Shown: piece after piece, positions 1,434 to 15,495 of the stretch
How the letters are laid out: every line of letters begins with the position of its first letter
Numbering within the stretch: the stretch's first letter is position 1
Origin: an uncultured Duganella sp.
GTDB lineage: Bacteria; Pseudomonadota; Gammaproteobacteria; Burkholderiales; Burkholderiaceae_D
Length of the DNA stretch: 64,000 bases
Reading direction: 5' to 3'
Assembly (NCBI GenBank): GCA_966112955.1
Contig: CBHWEO010000001.1
Span: 35,548 to 99,547, forward strand
Notes under the pieces: generated by a model
Database searches by the model: none
Seen by the model: only the letters and a program-made list of their open reading frames with translations
What the model was told of the DNA's origin: nothing
Translations under genes and position numbers: made by a program

Positions 1434-2793
1434 ACGCCGCCATCCCTGCCGCCGCGGCGCCCACCCTGCGCGCCGATCCACTGGCGGACGACACCGTTTC
1501 CGCCATCCTGGCCGGCCACGACGGCAGCCAGTGGGAAGCCATCGCCATCGTCAACCGCCTGCTGGCCCAATGGCAGACCAATGCCATCGTGTCCGCCTGG
1601 CGAGCGCCGGAAGGGACGCCCGCGCAGATTGCCGCCGCGCTGGAAGCCTACCTGGCCGCCGGCAGCAGGCTCCCCGCGTGGGCCGACGCCAGCCGGATCG
1701 CCCGCGCCGAAGAACTGTTCTTCGACATGAGCATGCTGTCCTGCAGCCTGCTGTTCTGCGCCAGCCTGCCCGAGTGCTACGTGGTGCCCGACCTGGCCGG
1801 CGTGCTGCACGTTGCCGGCCAGCTGGAAGCGCATTGCGATTACCGCGTGCGTTCGACGGCGGCCATGATCTTCCCGGTGATGATGCGCGGCGGCCTGGCC
1901 GACCCGGAAGGTGGCGGCATCGCGCAGATCCTCAAGGTACGCCTGATCCATGCCACGATCCGCCACCTGATCCTGCGCGGCAATCCTGCCGATGCCGTGG
2001 CGGCCGGCTGCCTGCCGGTGGCGCCGCTGGACGGCCCATGCCGCAACGTTTACGACACCCTGTTCAACAATGGCTGGAACGTGGCCGCCCACGGCCTGCC
2101 CTGCAACCAGGAGGAACTGGCCTATACCCTGCTCACCTTCCACTACATCTTCCTGCGCGGCCTGCGCCAACTGGGCCTCGGCCTGGCGCAGCAGGACGAA
2201 GAAGCCTACCTGCACACCTGGAACGTGGTCGGCCACGTACTGGGCATCGAGGAAGGCCAGATGTCGCACGGCATGGCGCAGGCCGAAGCCAGTTTCAACG
2301 CCATCCAGGCCCGCGCGCGCCTGTCGCCCTACCTGCCGGACCCGCGCCCTGCCCTGGGAGCGGCGCTCATGAAAGCCATGCAGGACGAAATCCCGCTGCG
2401 CATCCTGAAGCCGTTCCCGGTCCTGCTCACGCGCTACCTGTGCGGCGACGCTGCCCGCGTCGACCTGGCGCTGGACCAGCGCGTCAACCTGCTGTCGCGC
2501 ATCCTGTTCGCCGCAGGCATGGGCCTGGCGCGCGCCATCGACGCGCTGGTGCGCCTGGCCTTGCCCGGTTTCTCAATCTGCCGCATGATCACACGCATCT
2601 TCGGCTACCAGATCACTGTCAAATTCCTGATGGACCAGACCCGCCCACTGAAACTCCCGCCCACCCTGTTGAACCAGGTCGACGCCACCGTGCGCGGCTG
2701 GGGCGACGATCCCAAGGCGCCGCGCTGGCTGAACACCCTGGAAGCGCGCCTGGCCGGCCGCCGCGCAGGCAAGGCCGCAGGGAGCCGCCAGCC

Positions 2794-2800
<7 letters not shown>
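1430..2800 (+). CDS. MpaB/Lcp (DUF2236) family heme oxygenase-domain protein
   Basis: Motifs LPAWAD...I.RA..LF, RVRST, KVRLIHATIRH, P.NQEELAYTLLTF and W..VGH.LG. The ATG at 1430 overlaps the upstream stop (ATGA). Confidence 0.8.
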
Positions 2801-6263
<3,463 letters not shown>

Positions 6264-6267
<4 letters not shown>

Positions 6268-7169
6268 ACCAGGAAACGCAGAAAGTCCTGATCGCGGATG
6301 ACGACGGCATCAACCGCCAGGTCCTCGCGACCCTGCTGAAGCCGGAATACGTGGTGCTGCTGGCGAAATCCGGCGAGCAGACCATCGAGCGCGCCCAGCG
6401 CCATTTGCCGGACCTGGTCATGCTCGACGTGATGCTGCCGGACATGGACGGCTACGAAGTGCTGCGCCGCCTGCGCGCCGATCCCGCCACCGCCCACATC
6501 GAGGTGATCTTCATTACCGGCATGGGCCGCCCCGAGGACGAAGCCAAAGGCCTCATGCTGGGCGCGGCCGACTACATCACCAAACCCTTCAACTCCACGG
6601 TCGTGATGGCGCGCGTGGCCACCCACCTGCAAATGGTGCGCCAGCGCCGCATGCTGGAACACCTGGCGCACATGGACGGCCTGACCGAGCTGGCCAACCG
6701 CCGCCGCTTCGACGAGATCTACGCCAATGAATGGCAGCGCGCCGCGCGCCACACCCATCCCCTGTCGGTGGCGCTGCTGGACATCGACTGCTTCAAGCAG
6801 TACAACGACCACTATGGCCACCCGGCCGGCGACCGGGCCTTGCGTGCCGTGGCCCGTGCGGCCCGCAACGCCATGCGCCGCCCCTGCGACGTGGCGGCCC
6901 GCTACGGCGGCGAGGAGATCGTGATGCTGATGCCGGAGACGGACGCGGCGCAAGGCTTGTACGTCGCTGAAAGCATCCGCGAGGCGGTTGCGCAACTGCT
7001 GATCCCGCATGAAAAATCATACGCTTCGCCGGTGCTGACCGTCAGCATAGGCGGCGCCACCCTGCCGCTGGACGTGCAAGAATCGGCACCGGCGCTGTTC
7101 GATGCCGCCGACGCCGCGCTGTACCGCGCCAAGCAGGCCGGCCGCAACCGGGTGAACTGGAGGATGTGA
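6264..7169 (+). CDS. Response-regulator diguanylate cyclase (REC-GGDEF)
   Basis: REC LVMLDVMLPDMDG, DGLTELANRR, I-site RPCD and active-site RYGGEEI. Confidence 0.93.
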
Positions 7170-7447
7170 TGGACAAACGCTTGCTGATCGAGGGCCTGGT
7201 GCAAGGCGTCGGCTACCGCTACGCCTTCGCGGAACGGGCGACCGCGCTGGGCCTGGCCGGCTGGGTCCGCAACCGCCTGAGCGGTGCGGTGGAAGCCAGC
7301 GTGCATGGGCCCGCCGATGCGATCGGCGAGATGATCGCCTGGGCCCAGCGGGGCCCGAGTGCCGCCCACGTCAGCAGCGTGCAGGTGTCCGCCGACCAGG
7401 AGCCCGCGCCGCAGGACGGCGGGTTCGAAATCCGCCCCACGGCGTGA
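7169..7447 (+). CDS. acyP: Acylphosphatase
   Basis: GLVQGVGYR and GWVRN signatures; TGATG overlap with the upstream gene. Confidence 0.9.
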   Translation: MDKRLLIEGLVQGVGYRYAFAERATALGLAGWVRNRLSGAVEASVHGPADAIGEMIAWAQRGPSAAHVSSVQVSADQEPAPQDGGFEIRPTA

Positions 7448-7459
7448 CCGCCCCGCACC

Positions 7460-9937
7460 TCACGCAGCCAGGATCCTCAGCAGCAGCCAGACCGGCAGGA
7501 CGACATAGAGCATGACGTGGCCGAGCCGCTCCAGTCCGAAGCGGATGCCGGCCGCCTCGCGCGGACGCAGCACAATCGCCAGCAGCGAGCCCGATTCGAT
7601 CCCCGCCCGTAGCACGGTGGCGCCCAGCACCACGCCGATGGTCCACGCGGCCCACCAGAGGGCGAAGGCACTGAGGTAGGCCAGCGCGCCATAACTGTAG
7701 TATTCACCGAGGGCGCTGCCGTAGGCGATGTGCTGGTGCAGGTGGAAGGCCGGCATCGCCAGGCCCAGCGGCAGCAGCACGAATTTCACGAGCGGATGAT
7801 CGAGCCGGCCACCGCTGGCGCGTCCCGCCAGCGCAGCCAGCGACTGCAGCCATCCAGCGGCCGCCGGCCGGCCCGTTCCAGCCGCCCCCGGCACGGGTTG
7901 TCCCGGCGCCTCGAGCGCCGCCCCTGGGCCCGCCGCGAGCGCCGCGGCAAACGCCGCAGGGTCCGCCATGGCGAGTCCGTACCTCCACGGCGTGCCGGAC
8001 GCAAGGCGAAGCGCGAGCCCACGCCCCGGCGCCGGCACCCGCCACACCTCGACCGCCCCGATGTCGGCCAGCGCCAATTCCATCCTTTGCGCGCCCCGCG
8101 CCAGCACCAGTTTGCCGTCGCCGAGCGAGGCGCGCGCGGAAAACGCCATCATCACGCACCAGGCGACGGCCTCGGGCGCCAGGAATACCAGCCCGAACCA
8201 ACGCAACTGCGCCAGCGTGTTGGCGCGCAAGCCTTCATTCATCAGCAAGGCGAGGCACATGCCCAGCAATCCCACGCGCGCCAGCGCGCGCAAGCTCCCG
8301 GCAGCAAGACGCGCCAGCGACGGCAACACCGCCACGCGCACAGGGAACACCAGCGGTCGGCTAACATGGGCCGCCAGATCGCCAACGCCCGCTGGCCGGC
8401 GCCGTGCAAGCGCCAAAGTCCCGAGCAGCACCAGCAGCACGCAAGCCGCCGCCCCAACCCAGTCGCCCCACCGCACCATCAGTGTCGGCGCGGGTGTCCG
8501 CACGGGAAGGTCCGCGATCACCAGAGACGGCTCGCCCACCGGTGTACCCGCCAGCACGTCCCCGGCGGCATCGATGGCGGCGCTATAACCATTGGTCGTG
8601 ACGCGGAACTGCGGCAGGCGTGTCTCAATGCTGCGGAAGGCGGCGGCAGCCAGGTGCAGCCGCGCCCCCGGCCCGTCCCCACTGAACCACGAGTCGTTCG
8701 ACATGGTGAGGATGACCTGGGCGCCCAGCCTTGCCCCGGCAATGGCCAGCGCCGGGTCCACGTCATCACGGCAAATCAGCGGCAGCACCGGAATCTCGCG
8801 CCCATCCGCCAGCCGCAGCGGCAACACCCGCGCGCCATTGCCGGGCACCCACTGGCCCGCCCACGGCAGCCAGCGCCGCACGGCCGGCGCGTCCAGCCAT
8901 GCCGGCAGGTATTCCGTGAAGAGGAACAGCCGCGTCTTATGGTAGTAGCCGTCCAGGCCCGCACCGGGCCGCACGAAGGCTGCCGCGTTGTACTCGCCGG
9001 TACCATCGCGGTCGTAGGTGCCAAAAACCAGCGGCACGCCGGCAGCGTTCACGTAGTCGAGGATTTCGCGGTCGAAGGCCGCCCCCGCCTCGCTCTTCGG
9101 CTTGCCGAACGTGGTGGGATAGACGGTTTCGGACCACAGCAGCGCTTCGGCACGCTGGCGCGTCACGGCGTCGTAGCTCATGGCGAAGTGCCGGTCCAGC
9201 ACCAGGCGCACGACGGCATACGCGCCCTGCTCCCGCCGCAGCTTGTCGTAGTCGGTGAAATTGGCCTGCACCAGCCCCATCCGAAGCGGTTTGCCCGCCG
9301 GCGCCGGGGTGCCCGACAATGCCGCGGCGCCATAAGCGGCCAACAACGCCGGGACCAGCGCCGCCAGCCCCAATGGCAGCGCACAGGCCCGCCATCCGCT
9401 GCCGCGCCGCGTCACGGCGGCAGCCACGCCTTCGTTGGCCAGCAACAGCAAGAGCGTCAGGCCGGCCGTGCCACCAAGGTCCGCCGCCTGCCGCAGCAGG
9501 CGCGCGGGATAAAGTCCATAGCCCAGCGTGTCGCCCAGCACGCGCGGCAGCAGCCATTCCGCCGCGAGCCAGGCCGCGGCGGCGGCCACGGCACGCAGCC
9601 CCGTGCCGTACCAGCGCCCGGCTAGCTGGCGCACCAGCGCGTAGGCAAGGAACTGCGGCTGGAACAGCGGCGCCGCCAGCAACAGCAGGGCTAAGCCGGC
9701 TGCCTCGCCCAGTTGCGTGTAGCGGCCAAGCGCCGCGCCGAACCAGGCGAAACCGGCCGCCGTGTAAGCCACCGACATGGCCCACCCGCACAGCAAGGCG
9801 ACGCCGGCCGACCTGCGCGTTTCAAGCGCCAGCAGCCATGGCACCAGCAGGACAAAACCCAACATCCAGCCCAGGCCTCCGCGCGCGTACAGGGCCGTCA
9901 TGAGGGCGCTCGCAAACACAAAGGCAAGTAGTTTCAT
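7460..9937 (-). CDS. lnt: Apolipoprotein N-acyltransferase paralogue with a ~310-aa C-terminal membrane extension
   Basis: N-terminal TM bundle and nitrilase triad WSETVYP / YHKTRL / LICRDD, followed by LTMSNDSWF and RSIETRLPQFRVTTNGYS. Confidence 0.85.
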   Translation of the reverse strand: MKLLAFVFASALMTALYARGGLGWMLGFVLLVPWLLALETRRSAGVALLCGWAMSVAYTAAGFAWFGAALGRYTQLGEAAGLALLLLAAPLFQPQFLAYALVRQLAGRWYGTGLRAVAAAAAWLAAEWLLPRVLGDTLGYGLYPARLLRQAADLGGTAGLTLLLLLANEGVAAAVTRRGSGWRACALPLGLAALVPALLAAYGAAALSGTPAPAGKPLRMGLVQANFTDYDKLRREQGAYAVVRLVLDRHFAMSYDAVTRQRAEALLWSETVYPTTFGKPKSEAGAAFDREILDYVNAAGVPLVFGTYDRDGTGEYNAAAFVRPGAGLDGYYHKTRLFLFTEYLPAWLDAPAVRRWLPWAGQWVPGNGARVLPLRLADGREIPVLPLICRDDVDPALAIAGARLGAQVILTMSNDSWFSGDGPGARLHLAAAAFRSIETRLPQFRVTTNGYSAAIDAAGDVLAGTPVGEPSLVIADLPVRTPAPTLMVRWGDWVGAAACVLLVLLGTLALARRRPAGVGDLAAHVSRPLVFPVRVAVLPSLARLAAGSLRALARVGLLGMCLALLMNEGLRANTLAQLRWFGLVFLAPEAVAWCVMMAFSARASLGDGKLVLARGAQRMELALADIGAVEVWRVPAPGRGLALRLASGTPWRYGLAMADPAAFAAALAAGPGAALEAPGQPVPGAAGTGRPAAAGWLQSLAALAGRASGGRLDHPLVKFVLLPLGLAMPAFHLHQHIAYGSALGEYYSYGALAYLSAFALWWAAWTIGVVLGATVLRAGIESGSLLAIVLRPREAAGIRFGLERLGHVMLYVVLPVWLLLRILAA

Positions 9938-10560
9938 CGTCCGGAGGTCTCAAGCGGAGGTGGAATCACGATGCGCCGCGGCGGCAGGCCGGGCGGCGCC
10001 AGTTCGGGCGGCACCACGCGGTCGCGCGGCATTTCGAGCGGGCGATGGGCCGCGTCGTACAACTGGAAGCCGGGTGCAAACATCAGGATCGGTTCGATGG
10101 GCTGGCCATCGTCCGTGAACTGGTGGTGCCGCACATAACCTGGCGGCAGCTGGAAGTCCCTGGGCACCGCCAGGCCTACCAGGGGCGGGTTGGTGCCGGG
10201 CGGGTTGAATGCACCCAGGCCGGTATGCACGCCCTGCTCGTGCAGGCGTTTGATCACTTCGTTCATGGTCGGCTTCTCGCCGCGCATGACGTAGCTGCGC
10301 AAATCGCGCGTCGGGTCGGCGTCGCCCTCGGGTGCAGTCTGTGGCGTGGGGCGCGCTTCGTGGCGGGACGCAGCCGGCGCGGCCGGCGCGCTGGGCGCCG
10401 CCAGGACGGCCGGCGCCGTTCGTCCGCCAGCCGGAACTCCGCCTGCGGCACTGTCATCGGCCCGCACGAAGTACCACAGGAAAAACGCAAAGCTGGCCGC
10501 GCCGACGGCCAGCAGCAGCGCCGCCACCAGGTAACCCGGTCTTGGCCGCCAATGGTTCAC
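9934..10560 (-). CDS. Hypothetical protein: N-terminal membrane anchor, Ala/Pro linker, globular C-terminal region
   Basis: 4-bp overlaps with both neighbours; hydrophobic LVAALLLAVGAASFAFFLWYFV; C-terminal LPPGYVRHHQFTDDGQPIEPILMF. Confidence 0.75.
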   Translation of the reverse strand: MNHWRPRPGYLVAALLLAVGAASFAFFLWYFVRADDSAAGGVPAGGRTAPAVLAAPSAPAAPAASRHEARPTPQTAPEGDADPTRDLRSYVMRGEKPTMNEVIKRLHEQGVHTGLGAFNPPGTNPPLVGLAVPRDFQLPPGYVRHHQFTDDGQPIEPILMFAPGFQLYDAAHRPLEMPRDRVVPPELAPPGLPPRRIVIPPPLETSGR

Positions 10561-11636
10561 GGCGTCGGCGAATTGAAGACCGAGACCGCCCAGCCCATGC
10601 GCTCATGCCCCAACTGGTTCCATATCGGGTTCTTGCCGCCCGAGAAGGAGGTGTAGCGCGCCGCGCCGGTACCGGTAGTCCCACCGAACAGGCCCGCCGT
10701 GACGGTGCCGCCGGTGTAGGTCGGGTGCGTATCGTCGGACTGGATGTAGTCATAGCTGCTGCCGGCCGACACGAAGTGCGTGTTGGCGTCGCGGATCGTG
10801 GAACGCAGGGTCGAAGTAATCCGCGTCACGTAGCTGGCCTGGCTCTCGCCGTCCACGTAGCGCAAGCCGTCGGAGTCGATGATCCCGTCGCCATTGCTGT
10901 CGTAGTCCGCCGCCATGTACTGGGCGAAGTTGTCCGCGCACTTGAAGCCCTTCTGCCGCGCCACGTCGCACATCATGTGGTTCATGCGCGCCAGCGCGGG
11001 CAGGAACTTCTGCTGCATGTTCACCGTGGCACCTGTGCCGGGGTCCTTGCAGCTGCTCTGCACATTGTCCGCCGCATAGCCGGGATAATGCAGGTTCGAA
11101 ATCACCTTCACCTTCACGCCCGGGTAGGCGTTGGCGTTGATGTAGTCCATCGCCGCCGTGACATAGGTCCGGCAGCTGTTCTCGGCCGCGGTCAGCACCG
11201 AGTCGTCGCAGGTGCCGGTCTGGCTCTTGAAGGCCGAACGGGCCTGCAGCCCGTCGTTGCCGCACATCTCGAAGGTCACGACGCGAGTGTTGCTCGCCTG
11301 CATGTAAGATCGCTCCGCGACAATTTTGTTGTTGTACACATCGGATGCCACCGCGCCCGATTTGGCGCGCCGCACGCTTTCGATGTCCGCATTCCACAGC
11401 GCCGACAGGTATTCCGCGTCCACGGTCGGCGCGGAATACTTGGCCGCGCTGGTGACGGAACCGTTGTAGCCGGCGTAAATCGAATCGCCATACGCCACCA
11501 CGCGGTACTTGGTGCTGGTACCGGCGCGGTCGATGGTCCAGGAAACGTTTTGGGTCAGGGTATTTGCCGCTGCCTCTCCGCCGAAGGCGACGAAGCTGAT
11601 TGCGGCCAGAAGCATGCTGCGGAAGCGTGGGTGCAT
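10557..11636 (-). CDS. Secreted SGNH/GDSL hydrolase
   Basis: Sec signal ending AAA, block I YGDSI, block III CGNDG and block V DDTHP. Confidence 0.85.
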   Translation of the reverse strand: MHPRFRSMLLAAISFVAFGGEAAANTLTQNVSWTIDRAGTSTKYRVVAYGDSIYAGYNGSVTSAAKYSAPTVDAEYLSALWNADIESVRRAKSGAVASDVYNNKIVAERSYMQASNTRVVTFEMCGNDGLQARSAFKSQTGTCDDSVLTAAENSCRTYVTAAMDYINANAYPGVKVKVISNLHYPGYAADNVQSSCKDPGTGATVNMQQKFLPALARMNHMMCDVARQKGFKCADNFAQYMAADYDSNGDGIIDSDGLRYVDGESQASYVTRITSTLRSTIRDANTHFVSAGSSYDYIQSDDTHPTYTGGTVTAGLFGGTTGTGAARYTSFSGGKNPIWNQLGHERMGWAVSVFNSPTP

Positions 11637-11807
11637 GGAGTGTCTCCGATCATTGAAGTGTTATTCGAAACGACCAGCCAACGATTCATCTTAACGCCGC
11701 CGTGCGCGGCCGCTACCGCGTGGCTCGCAAAGCCAATCAAATGGCCGCTTCGGTCCGCGCCGTGTCGCGTGGCCGCCACGGAACGGGACGGTGCGGCATA
11801 ATATGGC

Positions 11808-12779
11808 ATGCTGAAACTCACCTTCCTTGGAACCTCATCCGGCGTACCCACCATTCGCCGCAACGTCACCGCGCTGGCCGTGCACTCGACCATGGGGCGC
11901 GACTGGTGGCTGGTCGACTGCGGCGAAGCCACCCAGCACCAGCTGCAGCGCGTGCCGCTCACCGTGCATGACCTGGCGGGCATCTGCATTACCCACATCC
12001 ACGGCGACCACAGTTACGGCTTGCCAGGATTGCTGGCCAGCGCCGCCATGACCGGCCGCAAGAAACCATTGCTGCTGATCGCCCCGGCCGGCGTCAAGGC
12101 CTGGCTGGACGCGACCATGCTGCACACCGAGCTTTTCCTCACGTTCGACATCATCCACATCGACGTCGCCAGCCGGCAGCAAGTCTTCCAAGAAGATGGC
12201 CTGGCGATCGAACGCTTCCCGCTCTCGCACCGGGTGCCCAGCTTCGCGTTCAGGTTCAGTTTCGAAAAGTCGGCGTGGAAGGTCGACCGCGAAGCCCTGC
12301 TGGCGCGCGGCGTGCCGCCCGGCCCGGCCTGGGGCTTGCTCCAGCATGGCAAGGACGTGGTGCTGGACGACGGCTCACTGCTGTCCGCCGCCGACTTCCG
12401 CAGCGAGCAGACGGAGCGCGCGGTGGCCGTCATTGGCGGCGACAACGACAACCCGGCGCTGCTGGCGCAAGCCTGCGCGGGCGCGGACGTGCTGGTGCAC
12501 GAGGCCACCTATACGGAGGCGGTGCTGCAAAAAGTCGGCCCCGGTCCGCAGCACAGCTCCGCGCAGCGCACGGCCTCGTTCGCGGCCGCGGCGGGCGTGC
12601 CAAACCTGGTGCTCACCCATTTCAGCCCGCGCTACGACAACCCGGAGGGCATGGCCGAAGTGGATGCCGAGGCACGCCGCCACTACCACGGCCAGCTCCA
12701 CCTGGCCCGCGATTTCGATTCTTATGAACTCAGCCACGGCCTGCTGGCGCAGCTGCCGCCGGCCCGCCGTGTAAAATGA
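11808..12779 (+). CDS. rnz: Ribonuclease Z family metallo-beta-lactamase-fold protein
   Basis: LTFLGTSSGVP, VDCGEATQ, THIHGDH, HEATY and LTHFSPRY. Confidence 0.88.
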   Translation: MLKLTFLGTSSGVPTIRRNVTALAVHSTMGRDWWLVDCGEATQHQLQRVPLTVHDLAGICITHIHGDHSYGLPGLLASAAMTGRKKPLLLIAPAGVKAWLDATMLHTELFLTFDIIHIDVASRQQVFQEDGLAIERFPLSHRVPSFAFRFSFEKSAWKVDREALLARGVPPGPAWGLLQHGKDVVLDDGSLLSAADFRSEQTERAVAVIGGDNDNPALLAQACAGADVLVHEATYTEAVLQKVGPGPQHSSAQRTASFAAAAGVPNLVLTHFSPRYDNPEGMAEVDAEARRHYHGQLHLARDFDSYELSHGLLAQLPPARRVK

Positions 12780-13170: not shown

Positions 13171-15495
13171 TCATCGCGCGATGCTGGCGACTTCCCCGTC
13201 ACTCAGCGCGCTGCCGTAGATGCGCAGGTCGTCCATCGCGCCCTTGTAGGGCGTATCCCACCAGTTCACACCCAGGGCGAACATGCCATTCGGGCTGGTG
13301 AACACGTTCGGGAAGTTGGCGCCGCTGAAGCGCCGGGCGCCGTTGACGTACACGTTGACCGCGCCGTTCCTGACGGTGAAGGCGACGTGCGACCATTGCC
13401 CGACAGGGATGTTCATGCCCAGGCCAGCATCGTACCAAGCCGTGCCCGACCACAGCATGCTTGCCCCGCCCACGAAGTCATGCCCCTTGGGCAGGAAGCT
13501 GATCCACGAGTCGCCGGAACGGGCGCCGAAGAAGGTCGTGGTGAAGGCCGTCAGCTGCGCCGGTTTGAGCCACATGGCCACCGTGTAGTTGTTCGATGCG
13601 ATCAAGCCGTCCGGCAGGCGGATGCCGGTCGCGCCATTGAAGACGGCCGCACTGCCCTTCATGCCCGGCTCGTAAGCAAGGCTGCCGCCGGCCTGGTCGA
13701 TCCTGCCGCCGACGACCGTGCCCGCCGGGAACGCGCCGGTCGCGTCGTTCAGGGTGCCGTCGAACGTGTAATGCGCCACCATGCTGCCCAGCTTGCGGAC
13801 TGTGACGACGAAGGTCTTCACCGCCTTTGCGTGGCCCTTCGTAATGGTCGCCGTCAGCGTGAGGGTCACGTCGCCGGCCGGGCTGGTGACCTGGCCGCTG
13901 TTGCTCAACACCGCCGGATTCGATGAAGTCCAGGTGATCACGGAATCGCGGGCGGCGCTGGTCGGCAGCACGATGTCGCCCGTAATGGCATTGGTATTGC
14001 CCAGCGAAAGTTCGCTATACACCGCGTTCACCACTTGCATATCGCTGCGCTGGGGCAGGCGGCTGCCCATGATGGAAATGCCGTCGCGCGATGTCGCGGT
14101 AAAGGTCATCACGTAACTTTTGGACGTTTCATCCCACTGGTTCAGGAATACGCCCTTGAACGGCGGCGAGCCGGCCAGCGTGATTTCCGCCTGGTTGCCG
14201 CCGGCCAGCGCCCAGCTGCCGTTGACGGCGCCGCTGATGGTGCCGTTCGCATTCAGGGTCACCAGCTTCGACTTCTTGATCGTGGCGGAAATATCCTTGC
14301 CGTGGTTGACGAACAGGTAGTCGCCGAACACGAATCCGCGCTGCACCGGGCCCGCGGTTTCGTTGGTGTTCCGGTATGGCGCCACCACGGGCCAGCCGTC
14401 CGCATTCATGAACATCTGGTGGACGCGGACTTCATGCTGCTCGCCGCGCTCCGGGAAGCGGCTATGGAAAACCAGGAAATGCTTGCCTGTCGCCGCATCG
14501 TAATAGGCCGAGTTGTGGCCCGCCGATACATAGCCGGTGCCGATGCCGGTGCCCGCTTCTCCGATCTTGCGCTCGAACAGGAAGTTGCCCATGATTTTCA
14601 CGCCGTAGGGCGCAATCGAGGCATCGTCGAACAGCGGCTTGGACGGATCGGCCTTGACGTTGGCCATGTTCACGCCTTGCGCGTCGACATAGGGCCCGTC
14701 CGGCGTGGCGGAGCGCGCGACACGCATGTTGTAGCCGCCCGCCGCATCCAGGCCGCCGAAGGAGGCGAACAGGTAGTAGTACTGCGTCTTCGGGCTATAC
14801 ATCACGTACGCGCCTTCGATCCGGCTGTGGTTCCCGCCCACCAGGCGCTTGCCGTAGCCCTGCCCCGGCAGCGGCATGCCGGTGGCGGGGTTCATCTGCA
14901 GGATGAAGATCCCGCCCGAGTACGAACCATAGACCATCCACAGCCGTCCACCCTGGTCGAAGAAGACGTTCGGGTCGACGGTATTGGGATGCTTCTGCGC
15001 GTCGTAGATGGTGCCGTCGTAGCTGGCCTGGCCCCACATGCCCGACTTCAGGATGATGCCCTTGTTCACGTACGGGCCTTCGATATTGTCGGCCACCGCG
15101 ACGCCCAGCGCGGAGCGTGGCGAATCGCCCTTGCAGGCGTTGTAATACATGTAGTAGCGGCCATCCGCCAGGCGCACCACGTCCGGCGCCCACAGGGTGC
15201 TGGTCTGCGCCCAGCTGAACGCCTCCGCCAGTTCCGTGTAGACGTTCTTCGAACCGTTGAGGAACAGCTTGTTGGTGGCGCTGACGGAATCGGTGAGCTG
15301 GGTCCAGTTCATCAGGTCGGCCGACTTGGCCGATGCGAGATGGGAGCCGAAGACGTAGTAGGTGCCGCCGCTCCTGATCACGGAAGGATCATGGACGGAG
15401 GCGTTCTGGAAGGTGATTTGCGCCGCAGCGCCGAAGGAAAGCATGGAGGACGCCAGTAAGGCGGCTGCCCTCCATCGCGAGAAGGAATTGGTCAC
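13171..15495 (-). CDS. Secreted GH43 (endo-arabinanase-like) with C-terminal beta-sandwich, Ig-like and LamG domains
   Basis: VHDPS, WAPDV, VDPNVF, IEGAY and GHNS motifs; TWTSSNP Ig-like repeat; LamG end FKGAMDDLRIY-like. GTG start with GGAGA RBS. Confidence 0.88.
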   Translation of the reverse strand: MTNSFSRWRAAALLASSMLSFGAAAQITFQNASVHDPSVIRSGGTYYVFGSHLASAKSADLMNWTQLTDSVSATNKLFLNGSKNVYTELAEAFSWAQTSTLWAPDVVRLADGRYYMYYNACKGDSPRSALGVAVADNIEGPYVNKGIILKSGMWGQASYDGTIYDAQKHPNTVDPNVFFDQGGRLWMVYGSYSGGIFILQMNPATGMPLPGQGYGKRLVGGNHSRIEGAYVMYSPKTQYYYLFASFGGLDAAGGYNMRVARSATPDGPYVDAQGVNMANVKADPSKPLFDDASIAPYGVKIMGNFLFERKIGEAGTGIGTGYVSAGHNSAYYDAATGKHFLVFHSRFPERGEQHEVRVHQMFMNADGWPVVAPYRNTNETAGPVQRGFVFGDYLFVNHGKDISATIKKSKLVTLNANGTISGAVNGSWALAGGNQAEITLAGSPPFKGVFLNQWDETSKSYVMTFTATSRDGISIMGSRLPQRSDMQVVNAVYSELSLGNTNAITGDIVLPTSAARDSVITWTSSNPAVLSNSGQVTSPAGDVTLTLTATITKGHAKAVKTFVVTVRKLGSMVAHYTFDGTLNDATGAFPAGTVVGGRIDQAGGSLAYEPGMKGSAAVFNGATGIRLPDGLIASNNYTVAMWLKPAQLTAFTTTFFGARSGDSWISFLPKGHDFVGGASMLWSGTAWYDAGLGMNIPVGQWSHVAFTVRNGAVNVYVNGARRFSGANFPNVFTSPNGMFALGVNWWDTPYKGAMDDLRIYGSALSDGEVASIAR

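What the first reader, a model, noticed from the sequence alone, without database searches (positions are those of the whole stretch)
7460..11636. Three-gene module: secreted SGNH hydrolase, unknown membrane-anchored protein, atypical Lnt
Seen: both junctions are 4-bp overlaps. Neither partner has a lipobox Cys after its hydrophobic segment, so the Lnt has no obvious local apolipoprotein substrate. Known: Lnt transfers an acyl chain from phospholipid via a Cys thioester, and SGNH enzymes hydrolyse or transfer acyl esters. Inference: an undescribed periplasmic or surface acyl-editing system (acylation/deacylation of a non-lipoprotein acceptor), separate from housekeeping Lnt.
Basis: partly seen in the sequence, partly recalled or inferred. 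Interest (0 to 1): 0.7.

Follow-up and report, generated by a model that had tools for sequence, protein, structure and literature searches.

The report
Conserved Lnt-paralogue, SGNH esterase acyl-transfer cassette
The three genes are real and form an undescribed, strongly conserved four-part cassette: a secreted esterase, a membrane-tethered periplasmic protein, a re-tooled copy of the enzyme that adds the third fatty acid to bacterial lipoproteins, and a new membrane module fused to it. It occurs in soil and freshwater Gram-negative bacteria of several phyla and probably puts a membrane-derived fatty acid on something other than a classical lipoprotein.

Summary
Three minus-strand genes overlap by 4 bp (GTGA, ATGA): a 359-aa secreted SGNH enzyme, a 208-aa N-anchored periplasmic protein ("MID") and an 825-aa Lnt-like protein. 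None has a lipobox.

The genome also carries a canonical 491-aa lnt, so this copy is a paralogue. It belongs to a separate, well-supported clade. It keeps the catalytic Glu-Lys-Cys triad and E343. In all 70 paralogues compared, the E. coli Lnt residues needed for the lipoprotein-acceptor step are replaced.

Its C-terminal 326 residues form a new membrane module with a cytoplasmic PH-like domain. Other phyla encode this module as a separate gene next to the other three.

All four parts stay linked in every locus where the contig allows, under at least four gene arrangements. No other neighbour is conserved. SGNH and the module were found in the same 6 of 61 sampled genera. The SGNH protein is unusually conserved (about 60-65% identity across phyla) and has an invariant signal-peptidase-I site followed by S/N/T-T-[LIV]-x-Q-N.

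Function is inferred only: a dedicated acyl-transfer system for a non-lipobox acceptor. The leading candidate acceptor is the SGNH N-terminus, as in AatD-CexE. I found no description in the literature or family libraries I searched.

The parts
10557..11636 (-). Secreted SGNH/GDSL-type enzyme, 359 aa. It is the most conserved part of the cassette.
   Evidence: ORF. Pfam Lipase_GDSL_2 and Lipase_GDSL hits are below cut-off. 127 columns are invariant in 22 sequences that include homologues from several phyla. Identity is 77-92% in 80 genome loci.
11565..11636 (-). Signal peptide (residues 1-24) ending in A-x-A, a signal-peptidase-I site with no lipobox.
   Evidence: In 238 homologues, position -3 is A or V in 234 and position -1 is A in 234.
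11526..11564 (-). Predicted mature N-terminus NTLTQNVSWTIDR, conserved from residue +1 and the candidate acylation site.
   Evidence: Position +1 is S (178), N (51) or T (9) of 238, followed by T-[LIV]-x-Q-N-x-x-W.
11475..11492 (-). SGNH block I, YGDSIY, with the nucleophile Ser52.
   Evidence: Invariant Y49, G50 and S52.
11250..11264 (-). SGNH block III, CGNDG, with the oxyanion-hole Asn127.
   Evidence: Invariant C125-G126-N127-D128.
10719..10739 (-). SGNH block V, SDDTHPT, with Asp301 and His304.
   Evidence: Invariant S300, D301, H304, P305 and T306.
10869..10907 (-). DYDSNGDGIIDSD loop, a possible Ca2+-binding insertion of the DxNxDGxID type.
   Evidence: Conserved D246, G249, D250 and D254. 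The Ca2+ role is inferred from the motif only.
9934..10560 (-). MID: a 208-aa type-II membrane-anchored periplasmic protein of unknown fold.
   Evidence: ORF. No Pfam or NCBIfam family. Always lies next to the Lnt-like gene, and between it and the SGNH gene in the fused Burkholderiales/Lysobacterales layout.
10465..10533 (-). MID transmembrane anchor, followed by a variable Ala/Pro-rich disordered linker.
   Evidence: AF2 helix 8-33; residues 40-82 have pLDDT below 50. The linker varies in length and sequence.
9949..10317 (-). MID conserved periplasmic C-domain, with invariant PPGT and GYVRHxQxTDDG.
   Evidence: Alignment of 33 sequences. AF2 gives pLDDT 91-96 for residues 130-200, but the chain is mostly extended with one beta-hairpin. 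No Foldseek match.
8438..9937 (-). Lnt-like N-acyltransferase part (residues 1-500): LNT_N membrane domain plus CN-hydrolase domain.
   Evidence: PF20154 and PF00795 hits; TIGR00546 scores 186.3 bits. Triad equivalents are E270, K334 and C389, plus E342.
8762..8779 (-). LICRDD: catalytic Cys389 followed by R-D in place of the Y388-E389 of E. coli Lnt.
   Evidence: C is invariant. Y388 becomes L or R in 65 of 70 paralogues, and E389 becomes D in 70 of 70.
9515..9541 (-). VLGDTLGYG: replaces the conserved L-T-G-F-P-W segment after TM5 of Lnt (G145 to D, with F146-P147-W148 deleted).
   Evidence: Seen in 70 of 70 paralogues. G145 is essential in E. coli Lnt (PMC5500890).
7460..8440 (-). C-module (326 aa plus stop): a new membrane module fused to the Lnt-like part.
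   Evidence: No Pfam family. AF2 pLDDT 86, pTM 0.80. Free-standing 275-300-aa homologues lie next to split cassettes.
7928..8128 (-). Cytoplasmic PH-like beta-sandwich inside the C-module.
   Evidence: AF2 strands plus a closing helix. There are only weak Foldseek matches, all to PH domains, at E 0.08-1. The cytoplasmic side is inferred from topology.
7688..7753 (-). PAFHLHQHIAYGSALGEYYSYG: the most conserved motif of the C-module, at the end of a TM helix.
   Evidence: Invariant Q, I, G, G, E and G, with near-invariant H. The periplasmic-face position is inferred from the model.

Best explanation
This is a self-contained envelope acyl-transfer system built around a neofunctionalised Lnt paralogue.

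Shown:
- The positions that E. coli Lnt needs for function are replaced by a different set that is equally conserved. Some of them were assigned to the second, lipoprotein-acceptor step.
- The enzyme is never found without three partners: a secreted SGNH enzyme, a membrane-tethered periplasmic protein (MID) and a new membrane module with a cytoplasmic PH-like domain.

Inferred:
- The thioester-bound acyl chain is passed to a non-lipobox acceptor at the periplasmic face of the inner membrane.
- My preferred acceptor (about 0.3 on its own) is the alpha-amine of the SGNH enzyme's new N-terminus (S/N/T-T-L-x-Q-N), exposed after signal peptidase I cleaves the signal peptide. AatD N-palmitoylates CexE and Aap in this way.
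- Acylation would turn the esterase into a lipid-anchored interfacial enzyme.
- MID, with its long flexible linker and extended, partner-shaped C-domain, would hold or present the SGNH protein.
- The C-module would be a scaffold or regulatory unit.
For: - A canonical lnt lies elsewhere in the genome. It is also present in all six other cassette genomes of the same family that were tested.
- The paralogues form one clade with 99/98 support.
- The triad, E343, N314, Y333, W415, F416 and R432 are invariant. G145D with deletion of FPW, V339F, G342T, R352D, E389D and Y388L/R are fixed in 65-70 of 70 paralogues.
- In E. coli Lnt these positions are essential. V339A, Y388W and E389A still form the acyl-enzyme, which makes them acceptor-step residues (PMC5500890).
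- All four parts are linked in all 67 informative loci of the 80 fetched and in three split arrangements with a different gene order.
- No other conserved neighbour was found in 55 loci.
- SGNH and the C-module occur in the same 6 of 61 genera.
- The SGNH protein has an invariant SPase-I site and an N-terminus conserved from +1 in 238 homologues.
- AatD is an experimental precedent for an Lnt homologue acylating a neighbouring SPase-I-processed protein (PMC7943197).
- In L055 the SGNH gene is tandemly duplicated and both copies carry the same N-terminus.
Against: - No substrate was observed, so all functional steps are inferred.
- The +1 residue is S, N or T, not the invariant Gly of AatD clients.
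- There is no flexible tether after it. The N-terminal segment may simply be part of the fold.
- The cassette has no AatPABC-like exporter.
- The extreme conservation of the whole SGNH protein fits a catalytic partner in a tight complex at least as well as a passive client.
- MID and the C-module have no assigned biochemical role.
- I could not run a complex prediction or fold the SGNH protein.
Confidence: 0.5

Rival explanations
1. Two-centre acyl relay or lipid editing. The Lnt-like enzyme loads a long acyl chain from a phospholipid. The chain goes to a small-molecule, lipid or glycan acceptor, for example the amine of PE to give N-acyl-PE, or an aminolipid or envelope glycan. The transfer is either direct or passes through the Ser52 acyl-enzyme of the SGNH partner. 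This follows the logic of the MBOAT/AT3 plus SGNH systems (PatA/PatB, OatA, AlgI/J/X, DltB/D), with phospholipid as donor in place of a cytoplasmic acyl donor. This is essentially the first reader's idea.
For: - The SGNH catalytic residues are invariant, so it is an active enzyme and not just cargo.
- Its whole surface is conserved across phyla, which fits a tight complex.
- The cassette is self-contained and spreads across phyla, so its substrate should be universal, such as membrane phospholipid.
- The Lnt acceptor pocket is re-tooled.
Against: - No member of the Lnt family is known to hand an acyl group to a Ser enzyme or to a lipid amine (my knowledge).
- There is no polysaccharide or lipid biosynthesis gene nearby.
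- This idea does not explain the conserved SPase-I N-terminus any better than the client-acylation idea does.
Confidence: 0.28
2. Lipase plus dedicated helper. The SGNH protein is a secreted or periplasmic (phospho)lipase. MID is its steric chaperone or inhibitor, like the membrane-anchored lipase-specific foldase Lif that is encoded downstream of lipA. The Lnt-like/C-module protein deals with the lipid consequences, for example by handling or re-using lysophospholipids.
For: - MID has the Lif-like layout: an N-terminal TM helix, an Ala/Pro linker, and a gene directly downstream of the esterase and translationally coupled to it.
- Its C-domain is modelled as an extended, partner-wrapping chain.
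- One distant SGNH copy (L096) carries a Thr-rich linker and a Cys-rich C-terminal extension, as secreted enzymes often do.
Against: - MID gave no Pfam family at all, so no match to the lipase-chaperone family, and no fold match.
- Lnt chemistry produces lysophospholipid rather than consuming it.
- This idea does not explain why the acceptor pocket of the Lnt-like enzyme is so specifically re-tooled and conserved.
Confidence: 0.12
3. An ordinary second Lnt. The paralogue still N-acylates classical diacylglyceryl-cysteine lipoproteins, perhaps a subset of them or under particular conditions. The SGNH and MID genes merely share its operon.
For: - It passes the TIGR00546 cut-off and has the full triad.
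- In one other family (G300, G474) it is the only TIGR00546 match above the cut-off.
Against: - Six positions essential for E. coli Lnt function are replaced in 65-70 of 70 paralogues.
- A canonical lnt coexists with it in all seven Burkholderiales cassette genomes tested.
- The G300 result is a lineage effect. 18 of 26 genomes of that family show no TIGR00546 hit at 1e-20, with or without the cassette.
- Linkage with three other parts persists through gene-order shuffling, which mere co-location does not predict.
Confidence: 0.07

Closest known systems
Apolipoprotein N-acyltransferase Lnt (E. coli b0657/CutE; TIGR00546; PDB 5N6H, 5XHQ, 5VRG, 6NWR)
   Same: - Same two-domain build (LNT_N membrane domain plus periplasmic CN-hydrolase domain).
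- Same Glu-Lys-Cys triad, plus E343, N314, Y333, W415-F416 and R432.
- Hence probably the same first half-reaction (phospholipid sn-1 acyl to a Cys thioester).
   Different: - Separate clade that coexists with a canonical Lnt.
- G145D with loss of F146-P147-W148, V339F, G342T, R352D, Y388L/R and E389D.
- An insertion after the catalytic Glu.
- A 326-aa extra membrane/PH-like module.
- Obligate linkage to the SGNH and MID genes.
- The acceptor is unknown.
AatD of the Aat/Cex system of enteroaggregative and enterotoxigenic E. coli (PMC7943197, PMC7478709)
   Same: An Lnt-family paralogue with an intact triad that serves a dedicated, neighbouring exported protein. That protein has a signal-peptidase-I site, no lipobox and a conserved mature N-terminus.
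   Different: - AatD is about 400 aa with no extra module.
- Its clients are small coat proteins with an invariant N-terminal Gly.
- It works with the AatPABC exporter.
- Here the candidate client is a 36-kDa enzyme starting with S, N or T.
- There is no exporter here, two other partners are present, and acylation has not been shown.
- I did not test sequence relatedness to AatD, because I did not fetch a virulence plasmid.
MBOAT or AT3 membrane acyltransferase plus extracytoplasmic SGNH transferase (PatA/PatB, OatA, AlgI/AlgJ/AlgX, DltB/DltD)
   Same: A membrane acyl-handling enzyme is genetically coupled to an extracytoplasmic SGNH-fold enzyme, sometimes with a small membrane-anchored helper.
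   Different: The membrane component here belongs to the Lnt/CN-hydrolase family, not MBOAT or AT3. The donor would be a long-chain phospholipid acyl group rather than acetyl or D-alanyl. No polymer-synthesis genes are linked.
Lipase-specific foldase Lif/LipH (Pseudomonas and Burkholderia lipA-lipH operons)
   Same: MID shares the layout: an N-terminal TM anchor, an Ala/Pro-rich linker, a periplasmic C-domain, and a gene immediately downstream of an esterase gene.
   Different: No sequence or fold similarity. The MID C-domain is short (about 115 aa) and modelled as extended with one beta-hairpin, not the alpha-helical Lif scaffold. This comparison rests on my knowledge of Lif.

Membership tests
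Lnt (apolipoprotein N-acyltransferase, TIGR00546) | LNT_N polytopic domain plus CN-hydrolase domain, scoring above the curated cut-off | tested here: met
   PF20154 E 4e-13 and PF00795 E 6e-14. TIGR00546 scores 186.3 bits against a cut-off of 132.9.
Lnt (apolipoprotein N-acyltransferase, TIGR00546) | Catalytic triad E267-K335-C387 plus E343 | tested here: met
   Invariant in 70 of 70 paralogues. The window residues are E270, K334, C389 and E342.
Lnt (apolipoprotein N-acyltransferase, TIGR00546) | Other residues essential for E. coli Lnt function (G145, V339, G342, R352, Y388, E389), several of them assigned to the acceptor step | tested here: not met
   These positions are D, F, T, D, L/R and D in 65-70 of 70 paralogues, and F146-W148 are deleted. 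Their roles are taken from PMC5500890.
Lnt (apolipoprotein N-acyltransferase, TIGR00546) | Orthology: the genome's single housekeeping copy, grouping with canonical Lnt | tested here: not met
   A canonical copy scoring 297.9 bits lies on contig C425. The paralogues form a separate clade with 99/98 support.
Lnt (apolipoprotein N-acyltransferase, TIGR00546) | N-acylates diacylglyceryl-Cys lipoproteins and complements lnt depletion | not testable with these tools
   This needs a complementation or in vitro assay.
AatD-type client-specific N-acyltransferase system | Lnt-family enzyme with an intact triad, encoded beside its exported client | tested here: met
   The precedent is described in PMC7943197.
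AatD-type client-specific N-acyltransferase system | Client is cleaved by signal peptidase I and has an invariant N-terminal Gly | tested here: not met
   The AxA site is conserved, but position +1 is S (178), N (51) or T (9) of 238 and never G.
AatD-type client-specific N-acyltransferase system | Linked AatP/AatC ABC transporter, AatB adaptor and AatA TolC-like channel | tested here: not met
   No conserved flanking family in 55 loci.
AatD-type client-specific N-acyltransferase system | Demonstrated N-acylation of the client | not testable with these tools
   This needs mass spectrometry or click-labelling.
SGNH/GDSL hydrolase superfamily (gene 1) | Blocks I (GDS), II (G), III (GxND) and V (DxxH) with Ser, Gly, Asn and His | tested here: met
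   S52, G94, N127 and D301/H304 lie in invariant motifs.
SGNH/GDSL hydrolase superfamily (gene 1) | Pfam family score above the gathering threshold | tested here: not met
   PF13472 scores 29.4 against 32.9 and PF00657 scores 21.8 against 23.6. No PDB sequence relative at E below 0.01. It is a very divergent branch.
MBOAT/AT3 plus SGNH O-acyltransferase pairs | Membrane partner belongs to MBOAT or acyltransferase-3 | tested here: not met
   The membrane partner matches only LNT_N and CN_hydrolase. The C-module has no Pfam hit.
Lipase-specific foldase (Lif) | Sequence or fold match to the lipase-chaperone family | tested here: not met
   MID has no Pfam or NCBIfam hit and no Foldseek match. Only the layout resembles Lif.
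Bacterial PH (bPH) domain membrane proteins (C-module) | Two TM helices followed by a PH-like beta-sandwich with a closing helix | tested here: inconclusive
   The AF2 model shows this layout. Foldseek hits to PH domains are weak, at E 0.08-1. No Pfam bPH hit.

The most novel reading that the evidence does not exclude
Environmental diderm bacteria of several phyla have a lipobox-independent protein-lipidation route. After signal peptidase I cleaves the SGNH esterase, a dedicated Lnt paralogue N-acylates its new S/N/T N-terminus with a phospholipid-derived fatty acid. The reaction is assisted by a tethered adaptor (MID) and a PH-domain membrane module. This would make AatD-type acylation, so far known only from enteric pathogens and only on glycine, a widespread way of anchoring enzymes to membranes.
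Probability: 0.27. Interest if true: 0.85.

Novelty: new variant of a known kind. Interest (0 to 1): 0.66.

Why it matters
Lnt is treated as a single-purpose enzyme of lipoprotein maturation and as an antibiotic target. AatD is the only characterised paralogue I know of with a different, non-lipobox protein acceptor.

This cassette shows a second large branch of the family: several thousand SGNH partner sequences in the databases, and about 500 species representatives. It spans Burkholderiales, Lysobacterales, Acidobacteriota, Binatota and Desulfobacterota.

The donor half of the active site is kept and the acceptor half is rebuilt. The enzyme is locked to an unusually conserved esterase and to two proteins that match no known family.

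Finding the acceptor would define either a new kind of protein lipidation or a new envelope lipid modification. It would also assign functions to three unannotated protein families. The cassette is compact and self-contained, so it can be tested directly by heterologous expression in laboratory E. coli.

Tried and rejected
- **Anti-phage defence models:** PADLOC gave no hits.
- **Regulatory RNA:** the Rfam scan of 7000-12200 returned only two sub-threshold chance matches. The consensus scan found no sigma-70-like promoter, and the two terminator-like sites lie inside the MID gene at chance level.
- **Solved structures by sequence:** nothing credible for the SGNH protein or MID. phmmer with the whole 825-aa protein found no PDB chain.
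- **Foldseek:** MID had no match. The C-module matched only weak PH domains, with nothing for its membrane part.
- **Extra cassette genes:** clustering of the flanking ORFs of 55 loci found no family in more than 11 loci, all of them close relatives.
- **Plasmid carriage:** no copies in PLSDB.
- **Naming the organisms of the split cassettes (L096-L098):** exact cluster look-ups gave no names. Names came instead from homologues of the L097 SGNH protein.
- **'The paralogue is the only Lnt' in G300:** rejected as evidence for a housekeeping role, because that whole family scores poorly or not at all on TIGR00546.
- **Literature:** searches for this gene combination found no description. The hit on Legionella PlaC/LapA concerned LapA homologues and was irrelevant.
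- **AatD sequence comparison:** I did not fetch AatD for a residue-level comparison, because it lies on virulence plasmids of pathogenic E. coli. I used the papers instead.

Full report
**1. The observation**

The minus strand carries three ORFs: 10557-11636 (359 aa), 9934-10560 (208 aa, GTG start) and 7460-9937 (825 aa). The junctions read ccgGTGAacc and cgATGAaac, so both are 4-bp start/stop overlaps. A GGAGA Shine-Dalgarno sequence lies upstream of the first ATG.

The unit is bounded on one side by a convergent acylphosphatase gene that ends 12 bp away. On the other side lies a divergent metallo-beta-lactamase-fold gene (my reading of its sequence; it was not scanned against families).

- **Gene 1.** It gives weak GDSL Pfam hits. 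It has all SGNH blocks, a signal peptide ending in AxA, six cysteines and no lipobox.
- **Gene 2.** It matches no family. It consists of one TM helix, a variable Ala/Pro linker and a conserved domain of about 115 aa.
- **Gene 3.** It has LNT_N plus CN_hydrolase and scores 186 bits on TIGR00546 (cut-off 132.9). It also carries about 326 residues beyond a normal Lnt.

**2. It is a paralogue, not the housekeeping lnt**

- The same assembly has a canonical lnt on contig C425. It scores 297.9 bits and encodes 491 aa with the ICYE motif.
- Six other cassette-bearing genomes of the same family each have a canonical copy (286-318 bits) plus the long paralogue (180-205 bits). Three genomes without the cassette have only the canonical copy.
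- In a maximum-likelihood tree, 16 paralogues form one clade with 99/98 support, apart from the canonical Lnts of the same genomes.

**3. The catalytic core is kept and the acceptor side is rebuilt**

I aligned 70 paralogues with E. coli Lnt.

- Invariant: E267, K335, C387, E343, N314, Y333, W415, F416 and R432.
- Fixed changes specific to the paralogues:
  - G145 to D, together with deletion of F146-P147-W148 (70 of 70)
  - V339 to F (70 of 70)
  - G342 to T (69 of 70)
  - R352 to D (68 of 70)
  - E389 to D (70 of 70)
  - Y388 to L or R (65 of 70)

Lu et al. found G145, V339, G342, R352, Y388 and E389 to be essential in E. coli Lnt. They also showed that V339A, Y388W and E389A still form the acyl-enzyme, which assigns these residues to the second, lipoprotein-binding step (PMC5500890).

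My inference is that the phospholipid-to-cysteine half-reaction is retained, while the acceptor is different and is itself under strong constraint.

**4. A fourth component**

The C-terminal 326 residues match no Pfam family. An exhaustive HMMER search found 286 relatives. Some are fused to an Lnt (about 800-840 aa) and many are free-standing proteins of 275-300 aa.

Three free-standing examples each lie within a few kb of a separate Lnt-like gene (527-545 aa), a MID homologue and an SGNH homologue at 60-65% identity. Their gene orders and strands differ from each other and from the window.

AlphaFold2 gave pLDDT 86 and pTM 0.80. The model shows two TM helices, a beta-sandwich with a closing helix, and then three or four long helices. 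Foldseek matched only PH domains, weakly, and nothing matched the membrane part.

The best-conserved motif is PAFhLHQHIAYGxxFGEYY, at the end of a TM helix. By topological reasoning it sits on the periplasmic face, the same side as the Lnt active site.

**5. Linkage and distribution**

- A scan of one genome per species found 516 loci encoding a relative of the SGNH protein. I fetched the best 80.
- In each of the 67 of those 80 loci whose contig extends through the cassette, SGNH, MID, the Lnt part and the C-module follow in the same order. The Lnt part and the C-module lie in one reading frame.
- The hosts are:
  - Oxalobacteraceae
  - Comamonadaceae/Sphaerotilaceae-type genera
  - Vitreoscilla
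  - Lysobacterales and Rhodanobacteraceae
- Homologues of the distant SGNH branch are named Vicinamibacterales, Binatia and Thermodesulfobacteriota.
- No further neighbour is conserved, and no copy is on a plasmid in PLSDB.
- In 61 genera sampled from the family, SGNH and the C-module occur in exactly the same six genomes.
- Across the phylum the cassette is rare and patchy: 4 of 401 genomes.

**6. The partners**

*SGNH protein*
- It is the most conserved part: 77-92% identity within the 80 loci and about 60-65% to the distant branch. 127 columns are invariant in an alignment of 22 sequences that includes the distant branch.
- In 238 homologues the signal peptide ends in A/V-x-A. The mature protein starts with S (178), N (51) or T (9), followed by T-[LIV]-x-Q-N-x-x-W. 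The C-terminus is conserved to the last residue, [FY]NPATP.
- One locus (L055) has two tandem SGNH copies.
- One distant copy (L096) has a Thr-rich linker and a Cys-rich C-terminal extension.

*MID*
- The model has a TM helix, a disordered linker and a confidently modelled but mostly extended C-part with one beta-hairpin. It has no fold match.
- This looks like a segment that takes its shape on a partner.

**7. Mechanism**

The firm conclusion is that this is a dedicated acyl-transfer system, distinct from lipoprotein maturation.

For the acceptor I favour the SGNH N-terminus, at about 0.3. An Lnt homologue, AatD, has been shown to N-palmitoylate the first residue of neighbouring SPase-I-processed proteins that lack a lipobox (PMC7943197). 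The SGNH protein has such a site, and its N-terminus is conserved from +1.

The weak points are these:
- the +1 residue is not Gly
- there is no tether after it
- there is no Aat-type exporter
- the roles of MID and the C-module are unexplained

The main rival, at about 0.28, is a two-centre relay or lipid-editing system in which the SGNH serine or a lipid amine is the acceptor. This follows the logic of the MBOAT/AT3-SGNH pairs. A Lif-like lipase-helper reading and an 'ordinary second Lnt' reading are less likely (see the rival explanations).

**8. An apparent exception**

In G300 and G474, which belong to another family, only the paralogue passes TIGR00546. However, 18 of 26 genomes of that family show no hit at 1e-20, and the rest score 78-108 bits, whether or not they have the cassette. 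This is a lineage property of their canonical Lnt or of the model. It is not evidence that the paralogue does the housekeeping job.

**9. Novelty and limits**

I found no description in the literature searches or in Pfam, NCBIfam or PADLOC. Earlier agents of this scan met the same cassette in two other genomes and also found no function. Their notes agree with my results but are not independent evidence. A note on other Lnt-like systems led me to AatD, and I checked that precedent in the paper itself.

Noticed in passing
L055:2830-5326 (MAG Burkholderiales REEB19): The SGNH gene is tandemly duplicated ahead of the MID and Lnt-like genes. Both copies keep the AxA site, the S-T-L-N-Q-N N-terminus and all catalytic blocks.
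   Followed up: partly
L096:2928-4430: In a split cassette from an unnamed metagenome contig, the SGNH protein carries a poly-Thr linker of about 20 residues and a Cys-rich C-terminal extension of about 120 aa (CGNGVVEGGEQCE-type repeat). The extension has no Pfam or NCBIfam hit. This suggests that the enzyme is displayed or secreted in that lineage.
   Followed up: partly
L098:446-1336 and L099: A DUF6687 protein (PF20392, E 2e-44) lies directly upstream of the free-standing C-module gene, on the same strand. It was not seen in the fused cassettes.
   Followed up: no
G300 and G474 (family f28 of the same class); L115, L128: In this family TIGR00546 finds a canonical-type Lnt only weakly (78-108 bits, partial) or not at all in most genomes. 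In two cassette carriers the paralogue is the only hit above the cut-off. Either the family's Lnt is very divergent or it is missing.
   Followed up: partly
G050:C8:47217-48413 (L116): One cassette-bearing genome has a second, long-branched canonical-type Lnt copy (272.9 bits) about 23 kb from the cassette on the same contig. That gives it three Lnt-family genes.
   Followed up: no
window 1531-7447 (+): A 7TM-type hybrid histidine kinase, a REC-GGDEF response regulator and an acylphosphatase form a same-strand run. It ends 12 bp from the 3' end of the Lnt-like gene, in convergent orientation. It is conserved only in the closest relatives (9 of 55 loci), so it is not part of the cassette.
   Followed up: partly
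window 13171-15495 (-): A 774-aa secreted protein whose sequence resembles a GH43-type glycoside hydrolase with a C-terminal LamG/laminin-G-like domain. This rests on reading the sequence only; it was not scanned against families.
   Followed up: no
window 10869-10907 (SGNH residues 244-256): The conserved loop DYDSNGDGIIDSD resembles EF-hand or dockerin-type Ca2+ sites. It gave a spurious weak PDB hit to repeats of a cyanobacterial protein (Glr1262).
   Followed up: no
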